From Craspedostauros australis (taxonomy: Eukaryota), in NCBI GenBank assembly GCA_030167865.1, contig JALAGF010004429.1, positions 62,001-126,000 of the forward strand: a stretch of DNA of 64,000 nucleotides, read 5' to 3'. Below the pieces are notes generated by a model. The model was not told the origin of the DNA. It saw only the letters and a list, made by a program, of their open reading frames with translations, and did not search any database. Each line of letters begins with the position of its first letter. The stretch's first letter is position 1. Of the stretch, positions 2,073 to 62,019 are shown in pieces. The translations under genes were made by a program, and so were the position numbers.

Positions 2073-3107
2073 CTATTTGCCCAAAGCCTTGCCCTTTCTT
2101 TTCTGCCTTGACTTGAGCGCCTTGTTGACCGATTCCTTGCCGGCCTTCTTGCTGGCATCGGGATCCAACCGCTGGACCATGAAGTCCGGTGCATTCAACC
2201 AGTCCTCGCCGCCGGTCTTGGGCCAGATGGTCTTGTGGAAGAAGTAGAAGTGACCCGACAGCATACCGAGCACATGCGGCAGGCCCGCGGACAAGTTTCC
2301 GGCCTGCAGCACGTCCGTCGCCATCAATGCCAGCGGCAGCAAGTAGTAGTGGATTTTGAAAATCAGCCAATTGACCTCCATCTTGGGTGTGATGCGGCTG
2401 AGCACGTGCAGCATGGAGGTGACCATGGAGGATGCGAAGAACGGCATGCCGAACATCATGCTGAGGACGGTGAGTAGGCTGACCTGCGTCAGGAGGAAGA
2501 CGAGGAATTGCGCCGGTCCGTAGAGGCGTTCCAGGTTGGAACCGTGCTCGTAGAGGTAGTAGCCGCTCAGCAGCCATGAGATGCTGGGCTTGCCGAGGAA
2601 GGACGCGGCCGTAACGATTCTCCAGACCTCCATACCGTAAATGATCCTCATTGGATCCAGTGCCATGACAGACTGCGCCATCTCCTCTCCGAGCGCTATT
2701 CCAACCACTGTGACAATGCCGACCATGATGACGTATCCTTTCGTGATTGGCTGCATCTTCTGCAAGAAGTCAAGCGAGGAGGATTCTTTCTTTTTGGAGT
2801 CGTCGTCCTTCTTCGATCCAGTCACTTTTCTCTTGCCAGTTGCAGTCTTCTTGCCTTTTGCCGAAGATGCCTTCTTGCTGCCAAGGCTGGCTAGGGATGC
2901 GGATCGCGATTTTGACTTGGACTTTCGCTTGGCACCGCCACGCAAGGCCAACAGGGCCTCCAAAGACTGGCTTGTTTCTCTGGGAACGAATGTCATTGGG
3001 GCAGCAGCGACTGCGCTCGTGCTCGCACCAGCGGATCGCGCATCCGCAATGCTCGCTGCGCATGCCAACGTCAACACGCCGGCCGTGTTCTTCGAGATGA
3101 GCTTCAT
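2073..3107 (-). CDS. Derlin (Der1 family) with N-terminal signal peptide; likely symbiont-type (SELMA) Derlin; ~344 aa
   Basis: Derlin motifs 'EVWRIVTAASFLG', 'YLYEHGSNLE' and 'HVLGMLSGHFYFF', preceded by a signal peptide (MKLISK...IADA), an LRGG motif and a Lys-rich linker; single exon. Confidence 0.85.
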   Translation of the reverse strand: MKLISKNTAGVLTLACAASIADARSAGASTSAVAAAPMTFVPRETSQSLEALLALRGGAKRKSKSKSRSASLASLGSKKASSAKGKKTATGKRKVTGSKKDDDSKKKESSSLDFLQKMQPITKGYVIMVGIVTVVGIALGEEMAQSVMALDPMRIIYGMEVWRIVTAASFLGKPSISWLLSGYYLYEHGSNLERLYGPAQFLVFLLTQVSLLTVLSMMFGMPFFASSMVTSMLHVLSRITPKMEVNWLIFKIHYYLLPLALMATDVLQAGNLSAGLPHVLGMLSGHFYFFHKTIWPKTGGEDWLNAPDFMVQRLDPDASKKAGKESVNKALKSRQKRKGKALGK

Positions 3108-24043: not shown

Positions 24044-27000
24044 TCATGCAGCGGGATCGGGCGAGCGGTAGAAGCGGAAACCTCTACCGGAGTTGACGGT
24101 CATCCATTTGCGCAAAGGGCCTGCGGCGATGGGGACGTGCAGGAGCCGTGAGGCCTGCTTCATCCACAGCGCAACGCTGGCTGCGTCGGCGTCTCTCCCG
24201 GGATAAGATTGCTGGGTTCGTCTATGCGTGGGATTGGCGTTTTGAAGCATGTCGGCCAGGTCGCTAGACCTGTCTCTCATAGCTTCCATCATCTCCTGCT
24301 CCGCAGACTTGTCGTTGTTGAACATGTCGTGGTTGCGGAGACGCCATTGTTCCCATGCAATGCGCCAAATGCGCCGGACCAGCTCAGCTCCCCACACTAG
24401 GGGCGATCGTCGTGATCCTTGACTCTCCAAATGTGCTTCCTGTAGCTCTATCCACTTGGACCCGATCAGCCCGCGCGCGAGCGAATTGCTGCCAATTGCA
24501 CGCTGTTGTTCGATCGCTTCTTTCTGCTTGCCGTGAGTGTTGGAGGGCTGGAGATGCACTGTGCTGGCGAATTGACTGGTCAGCATGGCCACAATTTCTT
24601 TTGCCACCTGTGGACTTGTTGGGTACTTCATCATCCAGATCCGAATGCCTGTGATATGTTTGGCCGTTGCTGCCGCGCGATGTTCAGCCGGGCACTCCCA
24701 CACGTGCAAGAATGTCTCCTCGGCGTCGCAACTCGGGCACTGACTTGATTGCCGGTGACCCCATTGCTTCATTCTGCGTCCCACAGCCGCTCCCCCCGTC
24801 ACCAATTTGAATGTTAGAGTGGCTTTCGGGTGGTCCAGGCTTCGAACGGCTTTGCCGACTGCTTTCCAGCTGATTCCTGCCGCGTTCTTCATCACCTTCC
24901 TCCGTCGCATCACTTCGAAGGCTTCGTTGGCCAGACCTTCCTCTGCTATGTGCGCGTAGCACACAGAGGTTATCTTCATACACCTGCGAAGGTGTACTTC
25001 CTTGCCTTCAATGACGCCGTCGTAGGGTAAGAATTCTCCGGCTGTCCTCCGTTGAGCACCGGCTAGCCTGTCGGCTTCCACGTTCATTTTCGCCCAGTCA
25101 TCAAGCTCCTGCCATGGTTTTCCGTCGTCCTGATGTCCTTTCACATGCTGACCTGTAACCCTCACCGGGAGCTGCTTCATCTTGCTTCGCGTCGCTCTCA
25201 TGAGGTCCGCATCTGTGGATCGAGGTGATAGGTGCCAATCCTCGTCCAGCGCCTTGAGCGCTCCGGTGCTGTCGCAACCAATTGTGACGTGACCGGACTC
25301 CACTTTCTGCGAGGTGCAGATACTTTGGATGGCCACCATGAGGCTGTACAGACCGGACAATTCGGCTCGATGTGATTGCATTGTGTCACTGCTTCAAGGC
25401 GTCAGGCATGTCACCCATAGCTTGGTTGTTTCGCCTTGATGGCTGCCTGTGATGACTGCGCCTGCGGCTCCTTTGTTATTCGCCACTGACCCGTCGCTGC
25501 AGGCCACCATTGTGCCGGCTCGTAGAGCTTCACCCAAGACCTTTGCTTCGCCCAAGATTTCCCACCTCTCAATCGCCCACGCGGAGCCCTCAGGGAGTTG
25601 CTGGATCACTTCGTGGAGAGTTGCGGTGTGTGGTCGGGGCTCCGGGCGTATGCCCTGCGAACTTCCGGATATCACCATGTTGTTTCCATTGAAGTACCCA
25701 TCCACTGGGTCCGTGCCTGGCATCGTCGTTCCTGTCGTTGCAGCATACTCCTTTCGTCGTCCTCGTCTGGGGATCCGTCTATTGTATACGTCTGCGCGTT
25801 GTAGGTATGTCACTCTGTCTGTGCTAGGGTCTCTCATACATTGGGGAACCTGCGATGTGTATCCTTGCCAACGGCCGAGCCGTGGGACGATCGGTCGCGT
25901 CGTTCCTCGGGATGCCGGGAAGCAGCGGCTGATGGCTTGCTCCCACGCTTTCCACTGCCTGGTGGTTGGTTCGCCGACTGGGGGCCATTGTATCCGGCTT
26001 TGACGGAACGGTGCTGGCCCTGGAGAGACAGAGGTTGGCAGTATGGCGTTTCCTTCCACGTTCGCTATGTCCGATACCCATAGCACTTGCTTCGCAATCC
26101 TGCAATGGTTGACCATTTGCAACGTTGCTTGGGGCAGGCCGAGGGGCAGTATATGCTCCATGATGAAGGTGTCGCCTTCCCTTGGGGTCGCCAGATCCGA
26201 GTGCTCGAAGTGCATCGTGAGGCCCAGGTTGTTGAGTTCCGCCCAGACTGATTGCATCCAAGACTCATTGATGACTCCTTTCCATTGGTCCTGCGGCCTG
26301 GTGAAGACTTGGTCCATTCCCGCCTGTAGTTCTAGGATGCTCATTGCGTTACACATCAGTTTGCCCGTGATCGTGTCGCCCTTCCAATGTTTGATGATTT
26401 CTTCAATGTGTCGTGTGGCTTGAGTGTAGTAGATGTGCGGAATGCCGAGTCCCAGATGTCGTCGCGGTCCGAACGCTAGTGCGCGGGAGACGTTTCTTTG
26501 CACTCCCATGGCCGGCAGCGCTGCTTGGAGCATTGGACGCATGATATTGCTAGCAGCCGTCTTGGTGAAAGTAGCACTGGCCAGCGGGTATTCCAGGGTC
26601 TTCATGATAGTGGCATGTAGCGCCACCTTGGCTTGCCCTTGGAGCAACCCTCCCCGTCTTACTGCATCTGCCCACTTGCGAGCCTTCTGAGTGTACATTT
26701 GCTCGTTGTCTTCTTGGACCCCGTCATGTCGCACCATCACTCCTAACGCTTTGCGCGCTTGGTTGACCGACAGGCGTTGTAGCGCTGATCTGTCTTCGCT
26801 GTCTGGTTGCCTGATGCTGATGTTGCCAGGTACCTCGGTTTCATTCTTGTATTCCCACTCTTTGCCATTCCACTTGAACGCCAACAGGTACCAGTAGCTC
26901 TTTCGCGGTTCCAGTGCTCCTCCTGTTGCTCGGAGCACTCCTTCCCACGTGTCGACCACTTGTTGCACTTCCTGTATGCACCCCGTTGAGTCTGTTGCAT

Positions 27001-29717
27001 CGGCTTGGATGGTGTGAATTATATCAGTATCGTCGACGAATGAGAAGCATACCAATTGAGTTGATTCGCTGGTGATTGGGTGCTGTGATGAGAATCCGTA
27101 GCCTCGATCTGCCATAATTTTCATGAGCGGTGAACTCATCGCCACCCACCCGGCCGGCGAGACTCCAAGGCCTTGAAGAAGCCCTTGTAGTTTGGGCGGC
27201 TTCGTAGGGTATGTGGTGCGAGACAGGCCGTATCCTGTGAGCACATGATGTTGCATTGTTTCCACCGCTGCAATCACACTTGAGCTGACGATCGATGGTA
27301 CTCCGATGCTGCTCATGCTCAGTTGCAGAGGCACGTGCGCCATACGGTCATAGCAACTCTTCGCGTCGTTCGAGCAGACGAAACTCGTGCGTCCCGTGCT
27401 TCTGATGATGTCTCCTGTCAGTCGGTTGTTCAAGCTGACTTCGGCCGCACTTCTGCACTTCCGGCTGCCGTATTGCTCCTCTGGCAGAAACCCGTTCACT
27501 TCGGCGTGGTCCATCATTTCTTTGCCAATCTTCTTCAGATTCATGTTGAAATCACCTTCGACTAGGCTGATGGTACAGAAGTGCTCGACTCTGTAGTTGC
27601 CTTCCTCTTTGAGCAAAGTGATATCAGAGCACCGCAGCCATCGAGCCAGGTTGTACCCCGATCGTAGCGATATCTCGCGCATGGCGGCATCGGTTGCTGC
27701 TGCTTCCTCAATTTTTGCGTTTGCCTTCCACATTCCGAAATGCAAGCCAGAGGGGCCTGACGCGGTGCGTTCTCGGGCTTTGGCCCAGGCTTGTTGATGC
27801 TCCTCTATTGGTATCTCCATGCGGCGTGCGTCCCACTGCGTCGGTTGGCTTGTGTTTTGTAGCTGCGCGAGAAGGTCTTGGGAGTATTGGTCCATGGATG
27901 GCCCGTGTCGTTGTGTTGCCATTGCAACGCCTCCGTGCTTCACACTTTGCTCAAACTCCTCGTTTTGCAGTGGTGTTGCGTATGCTTGCCTGTACTTGAG
28001 TTCGTTGGCCTTCATGCATTGGGCGATAACTTCGCGTTCCTTACTGAATGTTCTTTCTTCGCCATGCTCGTCTTTGGCGATGACCGTGGTTACCCTGCTG
28101 TTGCTGGCTCCGCCTTGTAGTGTCCGCTTTATTGACCGGAACGTTTCTGCTGTCTCTTCTCGGACGATGATCGCGGCAAGTGCTGTGCTGGCGGATGTGT
28201 TGCCAGCTTCCGCCATCTCATCAGCGCGTTGCTCAAGGAAGGTCCTCCTGTGTGCCAGAGCGCTTCGTTTCACTTGCTTCCACTTCTCATGGGCCAGCTT
28301 CCGTTTCTGCTGTATATCGTCTGCGGTGAGGTGCGACGTCGGCTGTCGTACTCCGGCTTGCTTCTTGGCCCGTTCATACCACCTCGCACTCACCCTCTTT
28401 CCCTGCCGTCGCCTCCACGCGATTTCCCAGAACTTCTTCTCCATTGCCGCTTTTTTTGGCGGCCGGTGAATATGGTACTCGTCCCGCGAATATTCGTCTG
28501 GATCCTCGTTCTGCCTGGAGCATGATCTCCTTTCTGTCATTGTCGATTTCTTCTGTCTCCTGAATTAGTGTTTCTGTCATAGTCCCGTCATCCTTGAGCT
28601 GAGACAGTACGTTTGCAGCCCGGTGCCGCAGGTCCGCTTTGGCATATCCGGTCTTGACCGCTTGTTGGTATCTTTTCATTGTGGCTGGCTTGTTCGTTTG
28701 CAGTCGTCTTCCTTCGAATTTCTAGGTCGGTCGGCTTCGCACGCCGAAGATGGCTTCACTGGAGATCTCGATCCATGCTGTACAGTGGTCCCAGCTTCCG
28801 TAGTCGCTGTATCCTGCCCTCTGTACCCCCACGGATTCCGAGACCCATATGCCGTCTATCACTCTTGCTGTTTCTGCGCGCACTTGCGTTGCCACCGGTG
28901 TTTGTTGGGGATGCTTACTGAGTATGGCTTCCTTCATGCCTTGTCGTTCAAGCATCGTCGCCATTTGTGAGTGTGCAACCTGCATGTTGATGTCCCCGCC
29001 CAGTATGATTGTTTCGCCTTGTGTGTGCCATTGCTGTATTTCTGCTTCCAGATCGTCGATGAGGGTGGCTATCGGTGGGGCGGTAATTCCCTGCAGTTCC
29101 AACCAGGCTGATTGCTGGTTTGCAACGGTGCGAGGTCCTTTCCCTGATGTGGTTGGGACGTACACGCTTACAATTCTCACAAAAGCGTCGTCTTTGCCAC
29201 GGAGCACCGTACTTGACCATCGTCCTAGCTGCCTTGGATCTTCTGCTGATCCCTTGTGTCGCCCAGCTGTTTCGTTGGTGATCAGGCATCCCGTGCCTCC
29301 CCATTGTCGTACGGGTCCCATCTTCTCTTGTTTGTTGTACGCCATCGTTTGGCGCCATGAGCTGTATTGGCCTTTGATCCGCGAGTGCCATGAGTGGCGT
29401 TTTGCTAATTTGGACCAGTTCAGCCCGATTTCGGAAAACATTGCCACGTCGAGTTTTAGCTTCTTTGTCCATTCCCACGTGTCTCTGTTTTTCCAGTGTC
29501 CTGTCTCTTCCGGTAGACAGCCCACGTTGAGGGCGCCGATGCGTATAGTATGGCCTCCTTTGTCGCGTGGGTTGTCTCCCCAGTAAGAGACTTGGAGGTT
29601 GTGCTCATTCCGACGCACTTCCTCCCCGAGAGCATCCGTTTGGCTTGCGGAGGTGGGTGTTGATGCTTCCCCTTCCTCCAGCCTTGTGTTAATCAGTTTG
29701 CTGGCCCCCGTCCGTGC
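24044..29717 (-). pseudogene. LINE ORF2 (APE-RT-RNase H-CCHC), ~1890 codons, disrupted
   Basis: APE: 'IGALNVG', 'MFSEIG', 'VSVYVP', 'LGGDIN', 'IDGIW', 'DH'. RT: 'EQYGSRK', 'SNDAKSCYDR', 'LLQGLGVSP', 'FVDDTD', 'KALGV'. RNase H: 'CSDGS', 'RAELSG', 'GCDS', 'HVKGHQD', 'NVEADRLA'. Zn knuckle 'CPSC...HVWEC'. Lesions: TAG 28722-24, extra base in the A7 run 28451-57, TGA 25394-96. Confidence 0.92.
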
Positions 29718-55370: not shown

Positions 55371-56522
55371 TCACACCTTCGGTGCTGGCTGAATATTGAT
55401 GCGAGCCCTCAAATCCGCCAACGGAGTATCGAATTCGTTCTCATAGTACACGTTCATCAGGCCTGTCGTCATTCCGCTGGATTGTTCATGCGCCCAGGGT
55501 AGATACTGATCTGTCAGGATGCGCCGCTCTGCTGCGTTGAGACGTAGAGAACCGACTGTGGATGACAGCGCTGCGATGGGCAAACCTGTTTGGAAGAGCT
55601 CCAGCCATTTCAACCCCAGCTCTCCCAGCACGGTCGGAGGCAAGCCTGTGAGTGCGTGCCAATAATCGTGGCACTGGTGGGTGAGCGGAACGTTGTTTGT
55701 GCGAGTGTGGAAAGGCAAGGCGCGGTACGTTGAGTTGAGTAAAAAGATTGAGTCGAGAGGATATGCTTCATTTCACGGTTCGCACATGACATACACATGC
55801 CGTACGGGCAAACAGTCAACCAGTCGCCATATCCTCACCTGCCTGTACCTGAGCATGACATACGCAAGCTCTTCGTCCTCAACGTAACGAACTTCAGCCC
55901 GTTCATCTGGATCATAATCATGCGACGCAAGGAAGATGCCGTATGCCTGCCCGAAAGTAATGTCATCTGCTTGCATTTTGTTCCCATGCAAATGACCATT
56001 GATGCTTGCTACAACATTGGGATCCTCCGCGAGAATGCGTTTGCCTTCCTGCATGAATTCTTCAACAGGGATGGTGTCTTTGCTGACGATGGGCCGATCG
56101 ATCAATACGCGTTTGCCGTCCGGGTGCGCCATCATCTCGTCACGCAATCGTTTCAACGTAGTGGCACCAGTGACATCGCCCAATGCTGCAACAGCATCGC
56201 CCCTGATGGGATCATTGAACGCCGTCACCGCGGAATGTAGTGCGATGGAGACCCGCCTGGCAATGATTGATGAGACGCTCGTCCCGTTGTCCGGCCGAGG
56301 CTGTCCGTAGAATGGGATGTCCGACGATGGTGGCAGTGTCGCTGACGTTGGCGATGCTACTCCTTCTGCTGTTGTCGAGCTGGAGCTTGCAAGTCTGCGA
56401 GAAGCTGGCACCTCCAAGATGAGATGGTTGGCTTGTGCCTCATTCGTTCTGGCCCCAACGCACACAGGAAGGATGGAACTGCGTTGAGTACTTCGGGCAC
56501 ACCGAAGAACCGTTCGATGCAT
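55371..56522 (-). CDS. COQ4: Ubiquinone biosynthesis protein COQ4, mitochondrial; 2 exons (56522-55839, 55673-55371), ~328 aa
   Basis: Arg-rich presequence; 'DPIRGDAVAALGD', 'TFGQAY', 'YVMLRYRQ|CHDYWHAL...GELGLKWLELFQTGLP', 'NVYYE'. Confidence 0.93.
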
Positions 56523-57107
56523 GATGATCGTGGGTGCGAAACTTGCGCAACTTGCGTAACGTAAGTACAATGCTTGTGATGTTGTATTCACAACCCTGTG
56601 TTTGGATGTGAATGATCACGAGCGATGGTTCGAACGTGGCCTCTCGTGTTGTTGTATTTCCCTCGGCAGAAGGTACCAGCACAAGGACTCTGCCGCAACC
56701 GAACACCAATACGATCATCGCTGGCATCGCCACTGCCTCCATCATTGCCAAACACGTCCCCCACCACTGTTGTGTTGCGGAGAACGCAAACAAAAGAGAA
56801 CAGAAAATCAAAGATCCACGCTTCACCGCGAACGTTGATGTGCATCCGACTCATTCGACCAACGACGCAAACCCAACCAAACGAAACGAGCCACCGCGTT
56901 CCGTCAAGGCTGCTGGACGGACACGCATCTGACTGCTCCAATGATGCCAAATACAAAGTCTTGATAGCCACAAGCATACTATACGTCGGATGCCTGATAC
57001 CCCACCAACGAGGGCGACATCAAGCAACATCAAGCAGCATCGGTTGTGAGGACTGCGTTGAATGCGCCAGCTCGTATACAACCAACCGACCAACCCATTG
57101 CATCAGC

Positions 57108-59765
57108 ATGGAGACAGTGCAAGGTGCTGACAATGAGGGCGGGGAGTACAAGGACGATCACATCGTTAGAAATAGCGATGACAATCAGGACGTTCGTGCC
57201 ACTGTCGGCGTGGACGGTGGAGCAATCAGCGAAAGCATGAGACCTAGCGGTCAAGGAGCAGGCCCGCAAAAGCCGGGGTCGTCATCGCAATTGGACGAGG
57301 CAAGGATCGCGAAGGCTGCGCGGTTTTGGCATCACCCGTCTTTGCGTGACGTGCCCTTGGAGCAGAAGAGGGCCTATCTTCGTCATCAAGGTGTCACGGA
57401 GGCAGAGATTTACAACGCTTGGGATCGCATCGTTGAATCAAGTGTCGATCAAGGCATGGGCACGAACATAGACGGAAGTGGGGTTGCGAACACGCGGTCG
57501 ACGATTGGTGCAGCCAAGCTGGATTCAAACTTGGGCCAAACGCAGGCTCTATCGTCTCAGCGAGAAGGACCTCCCCACGCCAATGCCATCAATGCACCAG
57601 CGCAAGCAACGGCAGCAACGATCACAGCAAATGACGCACGATACGGCAATCTTCCTTCTAGCATGCATCCCAATACATCGCAATTTGGCATACCCAATCA
57701 GGGAGCTCATCCTTACCAACAGTCGTCGTCCCCTTACTCTTACAACCCCTCACTTTACAGCCAGGCGGGAATGAATCATTTCAACGGAGATGATGGCGAC
57801 GATGACTACGCATTGACCTTGACAAAGGGAACGACACTTGTCGCGGTCGGGAGCTTTGTTGGATTGTGCGCCGCTGCATCCGTGCGATGGTTGAATGGAG
57901 GCGACTTCACCATCTTTCCACCTCCTACACGACGTAGCCTCAAAAGTAGCGGTGCAGACCAATCACGACAGCAGCAGCAGCAGCAGCAACGTAAGGACCA
58001 GCAAAGGGTTGGAGATCAGCTTGTATCGGATGACGATAGCAGTGAAGACGGTGATGGTTTTGGTGGAAACGCTATGGACCATCTCAAGCATGAGCAACAA
58101 ACCAACACTGGCGATCGTGACGAAGCAATCGAATTCACAAGTGATACTTCTGGTGCCATCCAACGATCAATCGCAGGAACGATATCGACGCCGGGTGCGC
58201 CAACTGATGCATCTGCCACCATGCTCAGCGAGATGCGCAGCTTGTCCACCGCATTGCAGTCGCATCTCATACTTCAAGAAAGCATTTTGAACAAGCTGAC
58301 AGCCGCCAAGGCATCGGACCTCACCGACAAGTCCATGGACGTCCTCAAATCGATCCCAACAACTTCAAACTCGGATGAAAGCGCCGAAAGCGATGCCTCA
58401 AGCGCTAGCTCGCAGCTTCAATTGCAGCTGCAACTGCAAACCCAGATGAGACTGCAGATGATTTGGGCTGAATTGATTGAAATCAAGACGCAATTGCACC
58501 TTTCATCATCGAAGGCTGCTGCCACATCCGACGCGAATGCCAACAGCACCCTCGACATTGATGACGTTGATGAAAACAACACGAATGGGAATGAACAAGT
58601 TGCTTCGACGCTCACAAAACTCAACAAATGTCTTGCTATGCTCGAGACTTCCGTCACGACATCGCCAATGGACCTGAATCCGAAAGACTCTGCCACGGCA
58701 TTGTTCGCACGCAATGCCCCCTCTTCGAATGGACCAAGCCCTACTATCGCAAATGCGGTATCAACGCCAGCAGCGCCGAACGACGCTGATGCATTGAAAA
58801 CGCCAGCATCTAGGCGGTCTGTCGCTTTCGTGCAAGACAAGGCCTCCGCAGATGTTCCGTCCGGCGATTCTCATGGATCAGCGTCGTCACAATCGTCCGC
58901 GATGGAAGCAGACGGAGATGTCGCGGCTCCGCGATCAATTCCTGATTGCTTTCGCGCAATCGTGAAGGAAAATGAACTGGCTGCCATCAAAGCCGCCTGC
59001 CAATTACTGTACCTGTACATCATCAACTTGTCCGCCAATCCAACCAACTCGAGATACAGAAAAATCTTCACCACCAATGAGAGCTTCCAGAAGGTGAAAG
59101 ACCTGAATGGTGGCACGGATCTTTTGATCGCCATTGGTTTCGAAGCCCACGGAAGCTACTTTTTGTGGCCAAAAGAAGGGAACCACGATGAGTCAACCAA
59201 AACGTTGCTGTCCAGCGTATCCAAAGCATTGAACACTCTGAAATCGCCTACAGCAGCGTCACCAACCGAATCGCGCGATGACATATTGCAGACTGTGTTG
59301 CAACCGATGGCGGCTCTCACAGAAGCTGGGATTGAAATTCACAAGCCGGATCAGCAGCAGGCCAACGGACGGGCGCCCAACACCCGTGGCAGCACCGACG
59401 ATGGTTCCAGGCAGCAAGAGCAGCGGCATCCAAATGCCAATGGCACTCCTGCGCCAGTAATCAATCAGGATCTGGCCTTTCCAGCATACGATCAGACTCC
59501 GCTTGGAACACAGTTGATGTCCCCACCCACCACGAAGAAGCATCCGTACGTACCGCCCTCGGAAAGCCCACAGGTGTCCAGCTGGAGCGGTGCCTACCTC
59601 AACGCTTTGTCGCGTGGCGAAGATGACGCTGCTGCGGGTGATTCAGCAACTAACAATTCTCCCAACAAAAGGGAGCACGATGGAGTGATCCAGGAGATTG
59701 ATGAAGCCGAAGAGGAAGGCGGCGACACAAGCAATGATGAAAAAGAAACTGTTCCATCCAATTGA
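57108..59765 (+). CDS. Pex14 N-terminal domain + TM + coiled coil + PUB domain protein, ~885 aa
   Basis: 'RIAKAARFWHHPSLRDVPLEQKRAYLRHQGVTEAEI' (Pex14_N pattern); hydrophobic 'LVAVGSFVGLCAAASV'; 'LLYLYIINLSANPTNSRYRKIFTTNESF...GGTDLLIAIGF' (PUB pattern). Confidence 0.85.
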   Translation: METVQGADNEGGEYKDDHIVRNSDDNQDVRATVGVDGGAISESMRPSGQGAGPQKPGSSSQLDEARIAKAARFWHHPSLRDVPLEQKRAYLRHQGVTEAEIYNAWDRIVESSVDQGMGTNIDGSGVANTRSTIGAAKLDSNLGQTQALSSQREGPPHANAINAPAQATAATITANDARYGNLPSSMHPNTSQFGIPNQGAHPYQQSSSPYSYNPSLYSQAGMNHFNGDDGDDDYALTLTKGTTLVAVGSFVGLCAAASVRWLNGGDFTIFPPPTRRSLKSSGADQSRQQQQQQQRKDQQRVGDQLVSDDDSSEDGDGFGGNAMDHLKHEQQTNTGDRDEAIEFTSDTSGAIQRSIAGTISTPGAPTDASATMLSEMRSLSTALQSHLILQESILNKLTAAKASDLTDKSMDVLKSIPTTSNSDESAESDASSASSQLQLQLQLQTQMRLQMIWAELIEIKTQLHLSSSKAAATSDANANSTLDIDDVDENNTNGNEQVASTLTKLNKCLAMLETSVTTSPMDLNPKDSATALFARNAPSSNGPSPTIANAVSTPAAPNDADALKTPASRRSVAFVQDKASADVPSGDSHGSASSQSSAMEADGDVAAPRSIPDCFRAIVKENELAAIKAACQLLYLYIINLSANPTNSRYRKIFTTNESFQKVKDLNGGTDLLIAIGFEAHGSYFLWPKEGNHDESTKTLLSSVSKALNTLKSPTAASPTESRDDILQTVLQPMAALTEAGIEIHKPDQQQANGRAPNTRGSTDDGSRQQEQRHPNANGTPAPVINQDLAFPAYDQTPLGTQLMSPPTTKKHPYVPPSESPQVSSWSGAYLNALSRGEDDAAAGDSATNNSPNKREHDGVIQEIDEAEEEGGDTSNDEKETVPSN

Positions 59766-60039
59766 TCGGACCACGTGCTGCGATTGGATCTATGCTCATG
59801 ATCGTCACGTTTCCTTTGCGTCGTTTCACGGAAGTCCTGTATTCTCTTCAACTCAAGTGTGAAGAAGCACGAGTGCAAGCAAGAGATGCTTTGAGTTGCA
59901 TCATAACCAATTCTATTAAAATTATCTTCCCCTTCCAATTTTCATACGCGATCGTGCCATATCCGTACTCATATGTTGCTTGGACCGTCTATGTTCGGCA
60001 ACTCCCACGCCCACGCTACAGCACCCCCTAACTCGAGTG

Positions 60040-62019
60040 CTAGGACCGGAACCTCTTCATCAACCGTTGCCGTGACGAAATGCTGTTGCTACGGGCAACA
60101 GCTTCACATTTCTTGGTCTTCCTGACACTTGCGCTGACAATGTAGTCGTCGCCGTCGCCGTCGCCACCGTCGCCATTGCCTCCCGGACCAGTGCGTGTAT
60201 GTTTCGATTTTGATCGAATGGTGGATTGATCTCGTGGCTGCTTCATCTTTCCACCGGATCCCGGGAGCCATTCGCCATCGTCTGCATCGCGTGCCTCCCC
60301 GACTATCCATCGCGTGTCTTCCCGCTTCTTCTTGGGACGAGGCCTGGCAGCATCTTGAGATGGATCGTGGGCCTTGCGCGCCCCGAGGGATAGGCTTATC
60401 CGAAGCCGTCTGACCTTCGGTTTCGGAGGCGGGTCGTAGTCTGACCGCTGATGTTTTCCAAGACTTGTGTGTTTGTGGATCATGGCGTCGGAATGTTGCG
60501 GTTGATCAGCCTGAGCTTCAATGGCTGCTTGCTGACTTGACAATCCGTCGCCGCCGCTAACCGTCGGGCGTCCCTTGCCAAGCGCGAATTTCAAGCGAAG
60601 CACCGGTGTGCTCTTGGCATCATTGGCGGGCTTCTTTGTGGTTGATGCAGTCGTAGTATTGGGTGTCTTCGTCGTGGGAGATATACCGTGATTCTTAACT
60701 CTGATGTACTCCTCACGCAGATTCTGCAGAAACTCGTCAACGCTTCCGCATTGATTGCTCAGCATCGCATGCTTCGCAGCCCCCTGTACCGATGGCCCGG
60801 TCCCCATATCTGTCTGGAGGGCGTGAACCTTCCACCATTCTTCCAACACGTGCACAAGATCCCCCATCCCCTCAACCTCTCGTTCCGATACTGTGCCGCG
60901 ACGTAGCCTATCCAAGTACATACCCCCAGCATAAAAATGCAGAGTCTGGAAGAATGGAAAGCGGAACTTCTCTTGCACCTTGGTGCGGGCCTCGATGCAA
61001 TGGACCTGCAGCTGCGTGGCAATGTCCATGCCATGAAGGAAGTTGCCTCCCAGGACCAACGAATCATCTGGTGTGTACACGGCATGGATGTAGGCGGCGG
61101 GGATGATGAGGGTCTGACCTGCGTGCAGCGTCAACCTCAGGACCTCCTCCTGGTTCTGCATCATGTCGGGCAAAAACACCTCGGCCTGATCTGGTCGGCA
61201 CAGCCATTCCTCGTAGGTGGCGAGATTCTTCTTGGTGGGCGGAATCAAGCAGAATACCTTCTTGCCCTGCAGGATGTGATACCAGACAGAGGTTCCGCCA
61301 AAGTCGATATGGAAATCCGTGTAGCATCCTCCCGCGGACGTCAGACAGTAGTACTGTACGTTGGGATACACGGATTGGCTGTCACGCTGGTCAAACCCCG
61401 GCCAGGCATGATCGATCCAATCTATCTCGCGCACGAAGCTGGGACTTGCGATCCTCTCCATCAAGGCCGTCTTGGAGAATTCCAACGAAATCTGGTTGAG
61501 AACTCGAGGTTTGTTGGCTGTCATATTCATGCATCTCTGGGCAGCCTTGCGACGCCGACGGCTGCTGCGACCTGTGGGACTGACATCGCTCTGGGAAGAC
61601 TTCGCCATCTCCTGCTGCCGACGGTACATCAGCCGCTCGTTATCCTCGAAGTAATTCACGAGGTCTTCCAACGTCCAGCCTTCCAGTTCCTCCTGATGCT
61701 CCACGTCGATGACATGAACCGGATGATTGTGGCCAATGATGTCGGCAATGTCACGGATCGATACCTCCCGCTTGGACAAGGATTGGATCTTCATCCCGAT
61801 GGATTCTGGCTTGTCCTTGACGAGGATCGGCTTGGTGAGGGTGATGTCTTTGTTGTCGCGCAATCGCTCGGACGTCAAGGTCCTGCCATCCTCCACGATC
61901 TGCACCCAGCTGGATTGCAGAGAATCGGAAGAATCGGGCAAGGTGAGGAACTTGGCGACATGGCGATTGGCATGATTGGGAGCGACGGCGCCGTCTCCTT
62001 TCTCAGCTTGTGCTTCCAT
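60040..62019 (-). CDS. JmjC histone demethylase, KDM2/KDM7 (JHDM1)-like, ~659 aa
   Basis: 'LNQISLEFS', 'YTDFHIDFGGTSVWYH', 'GKKVFCLIPPT', 'IHAVYTP', 'GGNFLH', 'KFRFPFF'; the H-x-D...H Fe triad is intact. Confidence 0.92.
   Translation of the reverse strand: MEAQAEKGDGAVAPNHANRHVAKFLTLPDSSDSLQSSWVQIVEDGRTLTSERLRDNKDITLTKPILVKDKPESIGMKIQSLSKREVSIRDIADIIGHNHPVHVIDVEHQEELEGWTLEDLVNYFEDNERLMYRRQQEMAKSSQSDVSPTGRSSRRRRKAAQRCMNMTANKPRVLNQISLEFSKTALMERIASPSFVREIDWIDHAWPGFDQRDSQSVYPNVQYYCLTSAGGCYTDFHIDFGGTSVWYHILQGKKVFCLIPPTKKNLATYEEWLCRPDQAEVFLPDMMQNQEEVLRLTLHAGQTLIIPAAYIHAVYTPDDSLVLGGNFLHGMDIATQLQVHCIEARTKVQEKFRFPFFQTLHFYAGGMYLDRLRRGTVSEREVEGMGDLVHVLEEWWKVHALQTDMGTGPSVQGAAKHAMLSNQCGSVDEFLQNLREEYIRVKNHGISPTTKTPNTTTASTTKKPANDAKSTPVLRLKFALGKGRPTVSGGDGLSSQQAAIEAQADQPQHSDAMIHKHTSLGKHQRSDYDPPPKPKVRRLRISLSLGARKAHDPSQDAARPRPKKKREDTRWIVGEARDADDGEWLPGSGGKMKQPRDQSTIRSKSKHTRTGPGGNGDGGDGDGDDYIVSASVRKTKKCEAVARSNSISSRQRLMKRFRS

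What the first reader, a model, noticed from the sequence alone, without database searches (positions are those of the whole stretch)
57108..59765. Pex14-like docking domain fused to a p97/Cdc48-binding PUB domain
Seen: one uninterrupted ORF carries a Pex14_N-like motif (~57290-57430), a TM, a coiled coil and a PUB-like domain (~58990-59170). Known: Pex14_N binds Pex5 WxxxF/Y motifs, PUB domains bind the C-terminus of p97/Cdc48, and yeast, animal and plant Pex14 have no PUB domain. Inference: this protein may recruit p97 directly to the peroxisomal import site for receptor extraction or quality control, alongside or instead of Pex1/Pex6. I cannot tell how widespread or already described the fusion is in stramenopiles.
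Basis: partly seen in the sequence, partly recalled or inferred. Interest (0 to 1): 0.7.

Follow-up and report, generated by a model that had tools for sequence, protein, structure and literature searches.

The report
Diatom-type PEX14 with PUB domain
This gene encodes a peroxisome-import docking protein (PEX14) that carries an extra domain known to grab the Cdc48/p97 unfolding machine; the design was already noted in Toxoplasma, but it also seems to be the PEX14 that diatoms were reported to lack.

Summary
One stop-free ORF (57108-59765, +, 885 aa) holds a Pex14_N domain (res 64-103), one GxxxG/AxxxA-type hydrophobic helix (241-262), long helices (366-517) and a PUB domain (610-714). This is supported by Pfam, PDB sequence searches and an AlphaFold model (PUB vs PNGase Z 13.1; N-domain vs T. 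brucei PEX14 Z 8.1).

It is not a one-off fusion. A search of 1.84 billion proteins gave 283 relatives. Of the best 150 plus the query, 84 have both domains. In 18 of 32 metagenome loci both domains lie in one ORF. The only named relative is a "hypothetical protein" of the diatom Thalassiosira profunda.

The architecture is already in print for Toxoplasma gondii and Chromera velia Pex14 (Moog 2017). That paper proposed the PUB as a site for Pex1/Pex6. However, three papers (2011, 2018, 2020) state that diatoms lack a detectable Pex14.

The PUB pocket YxxN(x)9Y is kept. The Arg that binds the p97 carboxylate in PNGase is Tyr or Phe throughout the family. The partner (Cdc48, Pex1/Pex6 or another protein) and the peroxisomal location are untested.

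Verdict: a real gene, a new member of a known kind, of moderate interest.

The parts
57108..59765 (+). Whole coding region as read here: 885 codons plus the stop at 59763-59765. No intron is needed.
   Evidence: ORF list and translation. All conserved family blocks lie in this one frame. The frame is open upstream to 56625, but residues 1-57 are already unconserved and of low pLDDT. The start codon itself is not verified.
57279..57449 (+). Pex14 N-terminal three-helix domain (residues 58-114; Pfam match 64-103).
   Evidence: Pfam 23.5-25.6 bits. PDB phmmer gave 12 of 12 hits to PEX14. The family profile vs PDB gave PEX14 8gi0_F at E 3.4e-9. pLDDT 94-97. Z 8.1 at rmsd 0.9 to 5aon_E. F73 is Phe in 82 of 84, K87 is Lys in 83 of 84, and position 90 is Tyr or Phe in 84 of 84.
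57450..57827 (+). Disordered Tyr/Pro/Gln/Asn-rich linker between the N-domain and the membrane helix (residues 115-240).
   Evidence: pLDDT <50. Across the family Tyr is 5.6% (7.3% in the last 40 aa) against 1.1% in other non-domain parts, and is higher in 81 of 84 sequences.
57828..57926 (+). Hydrophobic helix with GxxxG/AxxxA-like pattern (residues 241-262) plus the juxtamembrane motif R-W-L-N-G-G-D-F-x-(L/I)-F-P-P-P (260-273). This is the most conserved block of the family.
   Evidence: Hydropathy 1.73. Helix 242-262, pLDDT about 86. G248, A257, W261, N263, G264 and F267 are invariant in 84 of 84. The motif is present in 84 of 84 two-domain relatives.
58203..58658 (+). Three long helices (residues 366-414, 431-477, 491-517): the coiled-coil-like middle.
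   Evidence: AlphaFold2 secondary structure, pLDDT about 80-89. Residues 431-523 align with antiparallel helical hairpins of unrelated proteins at Z 7-9. No Pfam family. T406, M410 and L413 are at least 90% conserved.
58935..59249 (+). PUB domain (residues 610-714; Pfam match 626-691).
   Evidence: Pfam 41.3 bits. PDB phmmer: PNGase 2hpl at E 2.5e-4. Family profile: UBXD1 6sap at E 1.4e-8. pLDDT 92-97. Z 13.1 to 2hpl_A. Y637 84/84, N640 79/84, Y650 81/84, N657 79/84.
59274..59762 (+). Post-PUB helix (residues 723-739) followed by an acidic, Ser/Ala/Pro-rich disordered tail (740-885).
   Evidence: AlphaFold2. Composition. No Pfam family. The single WxxxY at residue 826 is not conserved (1 of 84).

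Best explanation
The ORF encodes this alga's PEX14. It is the membrane docking and translocon subunit for peroxisomal matrix-protein import, in the 'Pex14_N - membrane helix - coiled coil - PUB' form already described for Toxoplasma and Chromera.

Shown here:
- both domains, the helix and the helical middle are present;
- the layout is kept in at least 84 sequence clusters, including a diatom protein;
- the residues lining the peptide-binding faces of both domains are conserved.

Inferred:
1. The protein sits in the peroxisomal membrane with the N-domain in the lumen and the C-terminal part in the cytosol, as in human PEX14.
2. The N-domain holds the import receptor Pex5 (and/or Pex19) through a short amphipathic aromatic motif.
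3. The cytosolic PUB domain captures the C-terminal Leu-Tyr tail of a hexameric AAA+ unfoldase. This would most likely be Cdc48/p97, or alternatively its relatives Pex1/Pex6. The machine that pulls ubiquitinated receptor or damaged import components out of the membrane would then be parked at the import site.

My odds: PEX14-family protein with a genuine PUB 0.9; peroxisomal docking role 0.7; PUB recruits an AAA+ ATPase 0.5.
For: Domains and folds.

Family-wide architecture:
- 283 relatives at E<=1e-3.
- Among the 150 listed hits, Pfam at E<=0.01 finds PUB in 146, Pex14_N in 68 and both in 65.
- With family-specific HMMs, of the 150 plus the query, 88 have the N-domain, 147 have PUB and 84 have both.
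- In 18 of 32 metagenome loci both domains are in one stop-free ORF.
- One relative (P0061) is a 'type:complete' ORF of a transcriptome record and has both domains.

Domain order and spacing match the published T. gondii Pex14: N-domain 22-62, TMD 176-196, C-terminal PUB (PMC5737649 passages).

The N-domain ligand face is kept. F73 and Y90 align with the two Phe of the human chain. Position 94 is Lys or Arg in 76 of 84.

The PUB pocket motif YxxN(x)9Y plus the carboxylate-binding Asn are kept. Their role is taken from PMC6995525 passages.

The N-terminus is acidic with no signal-peptide-like start, so this is not the periplastidal sPUB (PUB + thioredoxin, PMC3101018 passages).

The TM N-flank is net negative in 77 of 84 and the C-flank is more positive in 64 of 84. 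This fits the Nin-Cout topology reported for human PEX14 (passage in PMC8172628).
Against: - There are no localisation, expression or binding data. RNA support could not be obtained.
- The Pfam Pex14_N score of the window's own protein is only 0.3 bits over the cut-off.
- Mix et al. 2018 report that diatom Pex5 has no WxxxF/Y motifs (PMC6203080 passages), so the canonical ligand of the N-domain may be missing.
- The residue equivalent to PNGase Arg55 (UBXD1 Lys198) is Phe654 here, and Tyr (54) or Phe (30) in 84 of 84 relatives. Mutating Arg55 abolishes p97 binding in PNGase.
- Some relatives keep the helix, motif and PUB but have no N-domain within 1-4 kb upstream: 4 loci and three sub-clades totalling 29 rows. 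The N-domain is therefore dispensable in part of the family.
- I could not search the window's own genome for a second Pex14, Pex5, Cdc48 or Pex1/6.
- That the window is a diatom is inferred, not shown.
Confidence: 0.6

Rival explanations
1. The protein has the same PEX14 identity, but the PUB domain anchors the peroxisomal exportomer Pex1/Pex6 rather than Cdc48. It would do the job of Pex26/Pex15/APEM9.
For: This was proposed for the T. gondii and C. velia proteins by Moog et al. 2017 (PMC5737649 passage). Pex1 and Pex6 are present in diatoms (Table 1 of PMC6203080). That paper never mentions Pex26, Pex15 or APEM9 (0 occurrences). The family-wide change of the carboxylate-binding Arg/Lys to Tyr/Phe could reflect a tail other than that of Cdc48.
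Against: No PUB domain is known to bind Pex1 or Pex6 (my recollection; not searched specifically). The C-termini of the alga's Pex1/Pex6 could not be inspected. The pocket core YxxN(x)9Y is the one that fits the Leu-Tyr tail of p97.
Confidence: 0.2
2. The PUB domain binds an internal PIM motif of a ubiquitin-system enzyme (a deubiquitinase or an E3 adaptor), as HOIP-PUB binds OTULIN and SPATA2. It would tune receptor ubiquitination rather than recruit an unfoldase.
For: Some PUB domains bind internal PIMs or other surfaces (PMC6995525 passages). The residue that contacts the free C-terminal carboxylate in PNGase is aromatic in 84 of 84 family members.
Against: Asn657, the other carboxylate contact, is kept in 79 of 84. 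Lys652, Arg651 and Arg649 keep the pocket rim basic. HOIP itself retains the K/RxxN motif. No candidate partner is known.
Confidence: 0.12
3. The protein is not a peroxin. It would be a Pex14_N-bearing membrane adaptor of another compartment (ER, chloroplast-ER or lipid droplets) that brings Cdc48 there, while diatom peroxisomes really work without Pex14.
For: Diatom Pex5 is reported to lack WxxxF/Y. Part of the family lacks the N-domain altogether. The best-conserved block is the juxtamembrane motif, not the N-domain.
Against: Every PDB sequence hit of the N-domain is a PEX14 (12 of 12). All 19 profile hits are PEX14 or PUB. The domain order equals that of accepted Pex14 proteins. The ligand-face residues are under strong conservation. 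Human PEX14 also binds a non-WxxxF Pex5 motif (title of PDB entry 4bxu).
Confidence: 0.08

Closest known systems
Pex14 of Toxoplasma gondii and Chromera velia (Moog et al. 2017, PMC5737649)
   Same: Pex14_N near the N-terminus, a transmembrane segment about 110-135 residues later, a poorly conserved middle and a C-terminal PUB domain (passages).
   Different: It belongs to another supergroup branch (alveolates, against a stramenopile-type alga here). I do not know whether they share the R-W-L-N-G-G-D-F motif, the Tyr/Pro-rich linker or the Arg-to-Tyr/Phe pocket change.
Canonical PEX14 (human, rat, yeast, trypanosome)
   Same: Three-helix N-domain (Z 7-8, rmsd 0.9-2.1; E 3.4e-9 by profile), followed by one weakly hydrophobic helix with small-residue motifs, a coiled coil and an acidic disordered tail.
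   Different: These are not described as having a PUB domain (Pfam lists only Pex14_N for PEX14 in Table 2 of PMC8172628). The linker before the helix is much longer and Tyr/Pro-rich. Only the N-domain of the 372-aa PEX14 chain 8gi0_F matched the family profile.
PUB domains of PNGase and UBXD1/UBXN6 (p97 C-terminus binders)
   Same: Fold (Z 13.1 and 10.6-12.0). Pocket residues Tyr, Asn, Tyr and the carboxylate Asn are kept.
   Different: The context is a membrane peroxin instead of a soluble glycanase or UBX adaptor. The Arg55/Lys198 position is aromatic.
Diatom sPUB of the periplastidal compartment (Moog et al. 2011, PMC3101018)
   Same: A PUB-domain protein of a diatom, thought to meet a Cdc48 paralogue.
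   Different: sPUB has a thioredoxin domain and a targeting presequence. The protein here has neither.

Membership tests
PEX14 (peroxin 14) | Pex14_N three-helix domain near the N-terminus | tested here: met
   Pfam 23.5/25.6 bits vs cut-off 23.2. 12 of 12 PDB hits are PEX14. Profile E 3.4e-9. Z 8.1 at rmsd 0.9.
PEX14 (peroxin 14) | Aromatic and basic residues of the WxxxF/Y-binding face | tested here: met
   F73 in 82/84, Y/F90 in 84/84 and K/R94 in 76/84 (Gln in the window's protein) align with the Phe, Phe and Lys of the human chain. The role of those human residues is recalled, not tested.
PEX14 (peroxin 14) | Single hydrophobic segment with GxxxG/AxxxA-type motifs after the N-domain, then a coiled coil | tested here: met
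   Residues 241-262, with G248-G252 and A255-A258. Helices 366-517. That these motifs define PEX14 is recalled.
PEX14 (peroxin 14) | Peroxisomal membrane location and binding of Pex5/Pex19 | not testable with these tools
   No genome, no partner sequences and no informative RNA or proteome data.
PUB domain (PF09409) | Profile match above the curated cut-off, and the fold | tested here: met
   41.3 bits vs 34.3. Z 13.1, rmsd 2.0, 99 of 100 residues of 2hpl_A.
PUB domain (PF09409) | PIM pocket YxxN(x)9Y | tested here: met
   Y637, N640 and Y650 are present. In the family they are kept in 84/84, 79/84 and 81/84. The motif is defined in PMC6995525.
PUB domain (PF09409) | [quoted passage not shown] | tested here: not met
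   The Asn is kept (N657, 79/84), but the K/R position is F654 (Tyr 54, Phe 30 of 84). This lowers the claim 'binds p97 exactly like PNGase', not the PUB membership.
Pex14-PUB type of Toxoplasma/Chromera | Pex14_N, TMD and C-terminal PUB in one polypeptide | tested here: met
   against the description in PMC5737649. Orthology by sequence or tree was not tested.

The most novel reading that the evidence does not exclude
This family is the 'missing' PEX14 of diatoms and packs three import functions into one chain. Pex13 is not detectable in these lineages, and no Pex1/Pex6 anchor has been reported. The three functions would be:
- a luminal receptor-binding domain;
- a Tyr/Pro-rich disordered linker next to the membrane that substitutes for the Tyr/Gly-rich conduit of Pex13;
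- a cytosolic PUB that tethers the extraction ATPase (Cdc48 or Pex1/Pex6) directly to the pore.

The N-domain-less sub-clades would then mark lineages in which receptor capture has moved elsewhere, after Pex5 lost its WxxxF/Y motifs.
Probability: 0.15. Interest if true: 0.85.

Novelty: new member of a known kind. Interest (0 to 1): 0.5.

Why it matters
Three papers that I read in passages say that diatoms have no detectable Pex14: PMC3178647 (2011), PMC6203080 (2018) and PMC7549135 (2020, citing earlier work). They discuss how import could work without it.

The family found here includes a protein of the diatom genus Thalassiosira with clear Pex14_N (37.6 bits) and PUB (52.9 bits) matches. It gives a concrete candidate that can be tagged and knocked out in the model diatoms.

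The architecture is now seen in both alveolates and a stramenopile-type alga. This raises the question of whether it is old within SAR.

It also offers a natural test of whether Cdc48 or Pex1/Pex6 is physically tethered to the docking protein. The idea is not revolutionary, because the architecture and the AAA-recruitment hypothesis were published in 2017.

Tried and rejected
- **Word-indexed protein searches.** The whole protein and residues 50-112 found nothing. With alignment A1 the search found only 4 proteins, probably because low-complexity words swamped the candidate lists. These blanks say nothing about novelty.
- **ESM Atlas.** No usable hit for P0001 or P0072.
- **Own genome.** Not held. 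So there was no search for a second Pex14, or for Pex5, Cdc48 or Pex1/6.
- **Sequencing runs.** One run was listed, with no RNA holder on record. Its contigs cover only 56400-56692 and 59448-60100, not the gene body. This gives no evidence on expression.
- **Names for relatives.** Three cluster look-ups covered 30 proteins. Only one carried an organism (T. profunda) and one was a transcriptome record. The rest are unnamed environmental sequences, so the taxonomic spread beyond diatoms is unknown.
- **Foldseek with the 885-residue model.** No match at E<=1e-3. The top rows were nevertheless PUB and PEX14 chains, and VIA-align on them gave clear Z scores.
- **A conserved WxxxF/Y self-ligand in the tail.** Rejected: 1 of 84.
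- **Artefactual fusion.** Rejected.
- **Identity with diatom sPUB.** Rejected.
- **Earlier scan notes.** Nothing found.
- **Supplementary files of PMC8172628.** Closed, and its Figure 2 is not held. I therefore cannot say whether that survey scored PEX14 as present in T. pseudonana.
Full report
**1. What is in the sequence**

The + strand is open from 56625 to 59765. The start codon itself is unverified. Residues 1-57 are acidic, unconserved and of low model confidence. The gap to the divergently transcribed Coq4 gene (start codon at 56522) is 585 bp.

Pfam finds two families and nothing else:
- PUB, residues 626-691, E 1.5e-10, 41.3 bits against a cut-off of 34.3.
- Pex14_N, residues 64-103, E 4.3e-5, 23.5 bits against 23.2. 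On the first 248 residues alone it scores 25.6 bits.

Because the Pex14_N score is marginal, I tested it three more ways:
- Residues 50-115 against all PDB sequences gave 12 hits at E<=10. All are PEX14 N-domains; the best is human 4bxu at E 1.2e-4.
- A profile of 84 relatives gave 19 PDB hits at E<=0.01. All are PEX14 N-domains or PUB domains: PEX14 8gi0_F at 3.4e-9, UBXD1 6sap at 1.4e-8.
- An AlphaFold2 model built on that alignment (mean pLDDT 60.5, because half the chain is disordered) shows a three-helix unit at 58-114 with pLDDT 94-97. It superposes on T. brucei PEX14 (5aon_E) at Z 8.1, rmsd 0.9 over 48 of 48 residues, and on rat PEX14 (3ff5_A) at Z 7.9.

The PUB part (610-714, pLDDT 92-97) superposes on the PNGase PUB domain at Z 13.1, rmsd 2.0, 99 aligned.

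Between the two domains lie:
- a disordered linker (115-240);
- the only hydrophobic segment of the protein (241-262);
- a poly-Gln and acidic stretch;
- three long helices (366-414, 431-477, 491-517, pLDDT about 80-89).

**2. It is a family, not an accident**

phmmer against 1.84 billion cluster representatives found 283 proteins at E<=1e-3, 182 at <=1e-10 and 50 at <=1e-30. The best hit has only 33% identity.

Among the 150 listed hits, Pfam at E<=0.01 finds PUB in 146, Pex14_N in 68 and both in 65:
- P0002-P0079: PUB 77 of 78, Pex14_N 42 of 78.
- P0080-P0151: PUB 69 of 72, Pex14_N 26 of 72.
These are my counts from the tables, and some scores are under the curated cut-offs.

With HMMs built from the family itself, of the 150 plus the query, 88 have the N-domain, 147 have PUB and 84 have both.

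An independent look at DNA used a scan of metagenome contigs with the family's most conserved peptide. It returned 32 loci:
- 18 have both domains in the same stop-free ORF.
- 4 have only the N-domain, close to a contig end.
- 8 have only PUB.
- 2 have neither.

One relative (P0061, 940 aa) comes from a transcriptome record marked 'type:complete' and has both domains. In that organism, at least, one transcript spans both halves.

For the window's own gene no transcript evidence could be had.

**3. Who has it**

Thirty relatives were looked up. Only one carries an organism name. P0072 is KAL9189005.1, 'hypothetical protein' of Thalassiosira profunda, a diatom. Its Pex14_N scores 37.6 bits and its PUB 52.9 bits. 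All the others are unnamed environmental or 'hypothetical protein' records.

In a FastTree of the 84 two-domain proteins, the window's protein sits in a well-supported group of 37-45 rows. This group is distinct from the 19-row group that holds the Thalassiosira protein.

The window itself looks like a gene-dense, intron-poor alga with a complex red plastid. It has long uninterrupted ORFs. It also has a Der1-like protein with a signal-peptide-like start and a Ser/Ala/Lys-rich extension, as expected of the plastid import machinery SELMA.

That the window is a diatom is my inference. It is not shown.

**4. Family anatomy**

The alignment and column counts show four conserved blocks.

(a) N-domain. 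F73 is Phe in 82 of 84, K87 is Lys in 83, position 90 is Tyr (74) or Phe (10), L91 is Leu in 82, and G95 is Gly in 81. F73 and Y90 align with the two Phe of the human chain. I recall these as the walls of the WxxxF/Y pockets.

(b) Membrane helix and what follows, consensus G-G-F-L-G...A-A-A-A-x-R-W-L-N-G-G-D-F-x-L-F-P-P-P. G248, A257, W261, N263, G264 and F267 are invariant. This is the best-conserved part of the whole protein, and no function is known for it.

(c) Short motifs in the helical middle (T406, M410, L413).

(d) PUB. Y637 is kept in 84/84, N640 in 79/84, Y650 in 81/84 and N657 in 79/84.

According to the UBXD1-PUB paper (PMC6995525, passages read), YxxN(x)9Y forms the pocket for Tyr805 of p97, and K/RxxN holds the terminal carboxylate. 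By the alignment, the window's Y637, N640, Y650 and N657 correspond to PNGase Y38, N41, Y51 and N58. PNGase R55 corresponds to F654, and that column is Tyr (54) or Phe (30) in all 84. PNGase loses p97 binding when R55 is mutated, whereas the equivalent Lys of UBXD1 does not touch the peptide in its model. Lys652, Arg651 and Arg649 keep the rim basic.

So a PIM-type ligand is likely. Identity with the p97 tail is not assured.

**5. Two further family traits**

The linker before the helix is rich in Tyr (5.6%, and 7.3% in the last 40 residues, against 1.1% elsewhere). It is also rich in Pro, Gln and Asn. Tyr is higher in the linker in 81 of 84 sequences.

Not all relatives have the N-domain. Many 'PUB-only' database proteins simply begin at or just before the helix and are probably truncated gene calls: 47 of 63 carry the juxtamembrane motif. 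But four metagenome loci with 1-4 kb of upstream DNA show no N-domain even with all filters off (best E 1.2).

On a tree of the helix-to-PUB part (124 rows), 17 of the 19 proteins with 75 or more residues before the helix but no N-domain fall into three neighbouring sub-clades. These sub-clades hold 29 rows in total, none with an N-domain. The label needs 9 changes on the tree against a shuffled mean of 34. The caveats are FastTree, a midpoint root and metagenomic gene models.

The N-domain therefore seems to have been lost, or a paralogue without it exists, in part of the family.

**6. How it most likely works**

By domain order, spacing and conserved faces this is a PEX14.

Human PEX14 is Nin-Cout (passage in PMC8172628). 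Here the N-flank of the helix is net negative in 77 of 84, and the C-flank is more positive than the N-flank in 64 of 84. This is weakly consistent with the same topology. It would place the PUB domain in the cytosol and the N-domain in the lumen.

The inferred steps are:
- The N-domain holds Pex5 (and/or Pex19).
- The helical middle oligomerises.
- The PUB domain docks the tail of an AAA+ hexamer at the import site, for receptor extraction or quality control.

None of this is shown.

Mix et al. 2018 report that diatom Pex5 has no WxxxF/Y motifs. This argues against the canonical ligand. However, human PEX14 also binds a Pex5 LVxEF motif (title of PDB 4bxu), and the strong conservation of the ligand face argues that something is bound.

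**7. Comparison with what is known**

A full-text search for 'Pex14' with 'PUB domain' found nothing. 'PEX14', 'p97' and 'PUB' as whole words found two papers, and 'Pex14', 'PUB' and 'peroxisome' found 13. Only one of these is relevant.

Moog et al. 2017 (PMC5737649, passages read) state that T. gondii Pex14 has an N-domain at 22-62 and a TMD at 176-196. [quoted passage not shown] The fusion and the AAA-recruitment idea are thus in print.

Not in print, as far as reach, is a Pex14 for diatoms:
- Gonzalez et al. 2011 could not identify Pex13 or Pex14 in P. tricornutum.
- Mix et al. 2018 list Pex14 as 'nd' in P. tricornutum and T. pseudonana, and suggest a more divergent Pex14 or a replacement.
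- A 2020 paper repeats the absence.

Whether the 2021 survey PMC8172628 scored PEX14 in T. pseudonana I cannot tell.

The marginal Pfam score of the window's protein, and the 25-30% identity over a 45-residue domain, explain how similarity searches could miss it.

**8. Verdict**

This is a real gene with real domains and a conserved architecture. It is a new member, in a new lineage, of a kind already described for apicomplexans and chromerids. The added value is that it fills a reported gap in diatom peroxisome biology.

Several traits deserve follow-up: the invariant juxtamembrane motif, the Tyr/Pro-rich linker, the altered PUB pocket, and relatives without the N-domain.

Interest 0.5.

Noticed in passing
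L016, L024, L025, L029 (metagenome loci); proteins such as P0060, P0067, P0068, P0071, P0076, P0100, P0118, P0145: Relatives keep the membrane helix, the juxtamembrane motif and PUB but have no Pex14_N domain, even with 1-4 kb of upstream DNA. On a tree they form three neighbouring sub-clades (29 rows, none with the N-domain). This is either loss of the N-domain or a paralogue.
   Followed up: partly
window 57450-57827 (residues 115-240) and the same linker in 84 relatives: The disordered linker before the membrane helix is enriched in Tyr (5.6% vs 1.1%) and Pro (11-14% vs 4.4%), with PxY/PPxY-like repeats. Pex13, whose Tyr/Gly-rich domain forms the import conduit (PMC9795577, abstract in the listing), is 'nd' in all the algae of Mix 2018 Table 1. 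A substitute role is speculation.
   Followed up: partly
window 57885-57926 (residues 260-273): The juxtamembrane motif R-W-L-N-G-G-D-F-x-L-F-P-P-P is the most conserved block of the family (W, N, G and F are invariant in 84 of 84). It has no known function.
   Followed up: partly
C-termini of P0046, P0064, P0066, P0070, P0072, P0079, P0089, P0108: Eight of the 84 two-domain relatives end in (D/E/N)-L-N. All eight are in the clade that holds the Thalassiosira protein. This is a possible clade-specific C-terminal motif. The window's protein does not have it.
   Followed up: no
window 2076-3107 (-): A Der1-like protein (PF04511, E 3e-18) whose domain starts at residue 120, after a signal-peptide-like start and a Ser/Ala/Lys-rich extension. 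It looks like the symbiont-type Der1 of the plastid import machinery of algae with complex red plastids.
   Followed up: partly
window 25397-28540 (-), with the adjacent ORF 24047-25381 (-): A 1048-aa ORF with a reverse-transcriptase domain (PF00078, 30 bits, just over the cut-off). It is probably a retroelement. The neighbouring 445-aa ORF has no Pfam match.
   Followed up: no
window 55773-56522 (-): A Coq4 (ubiquinone biosynthesis) gene lies head to head with the PEX14 gene, 585 bp apart. Pfam reports two stretches, and the best covers only profile positions 56-125 of 221. The ORF tail looks non-coding, so an intron or a further exon is likely.
   Followed up: no
window 59448-60100: A contig of the one public run that holds part of the region runs from inside the 3' end of the PEX14 ORF, across the 274-bp gap, into the convergent JmjC/JHD gene (60040-62019, -). 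If it is RNA, the 3' ends overlap. It may be DNA.
   Followed up: no
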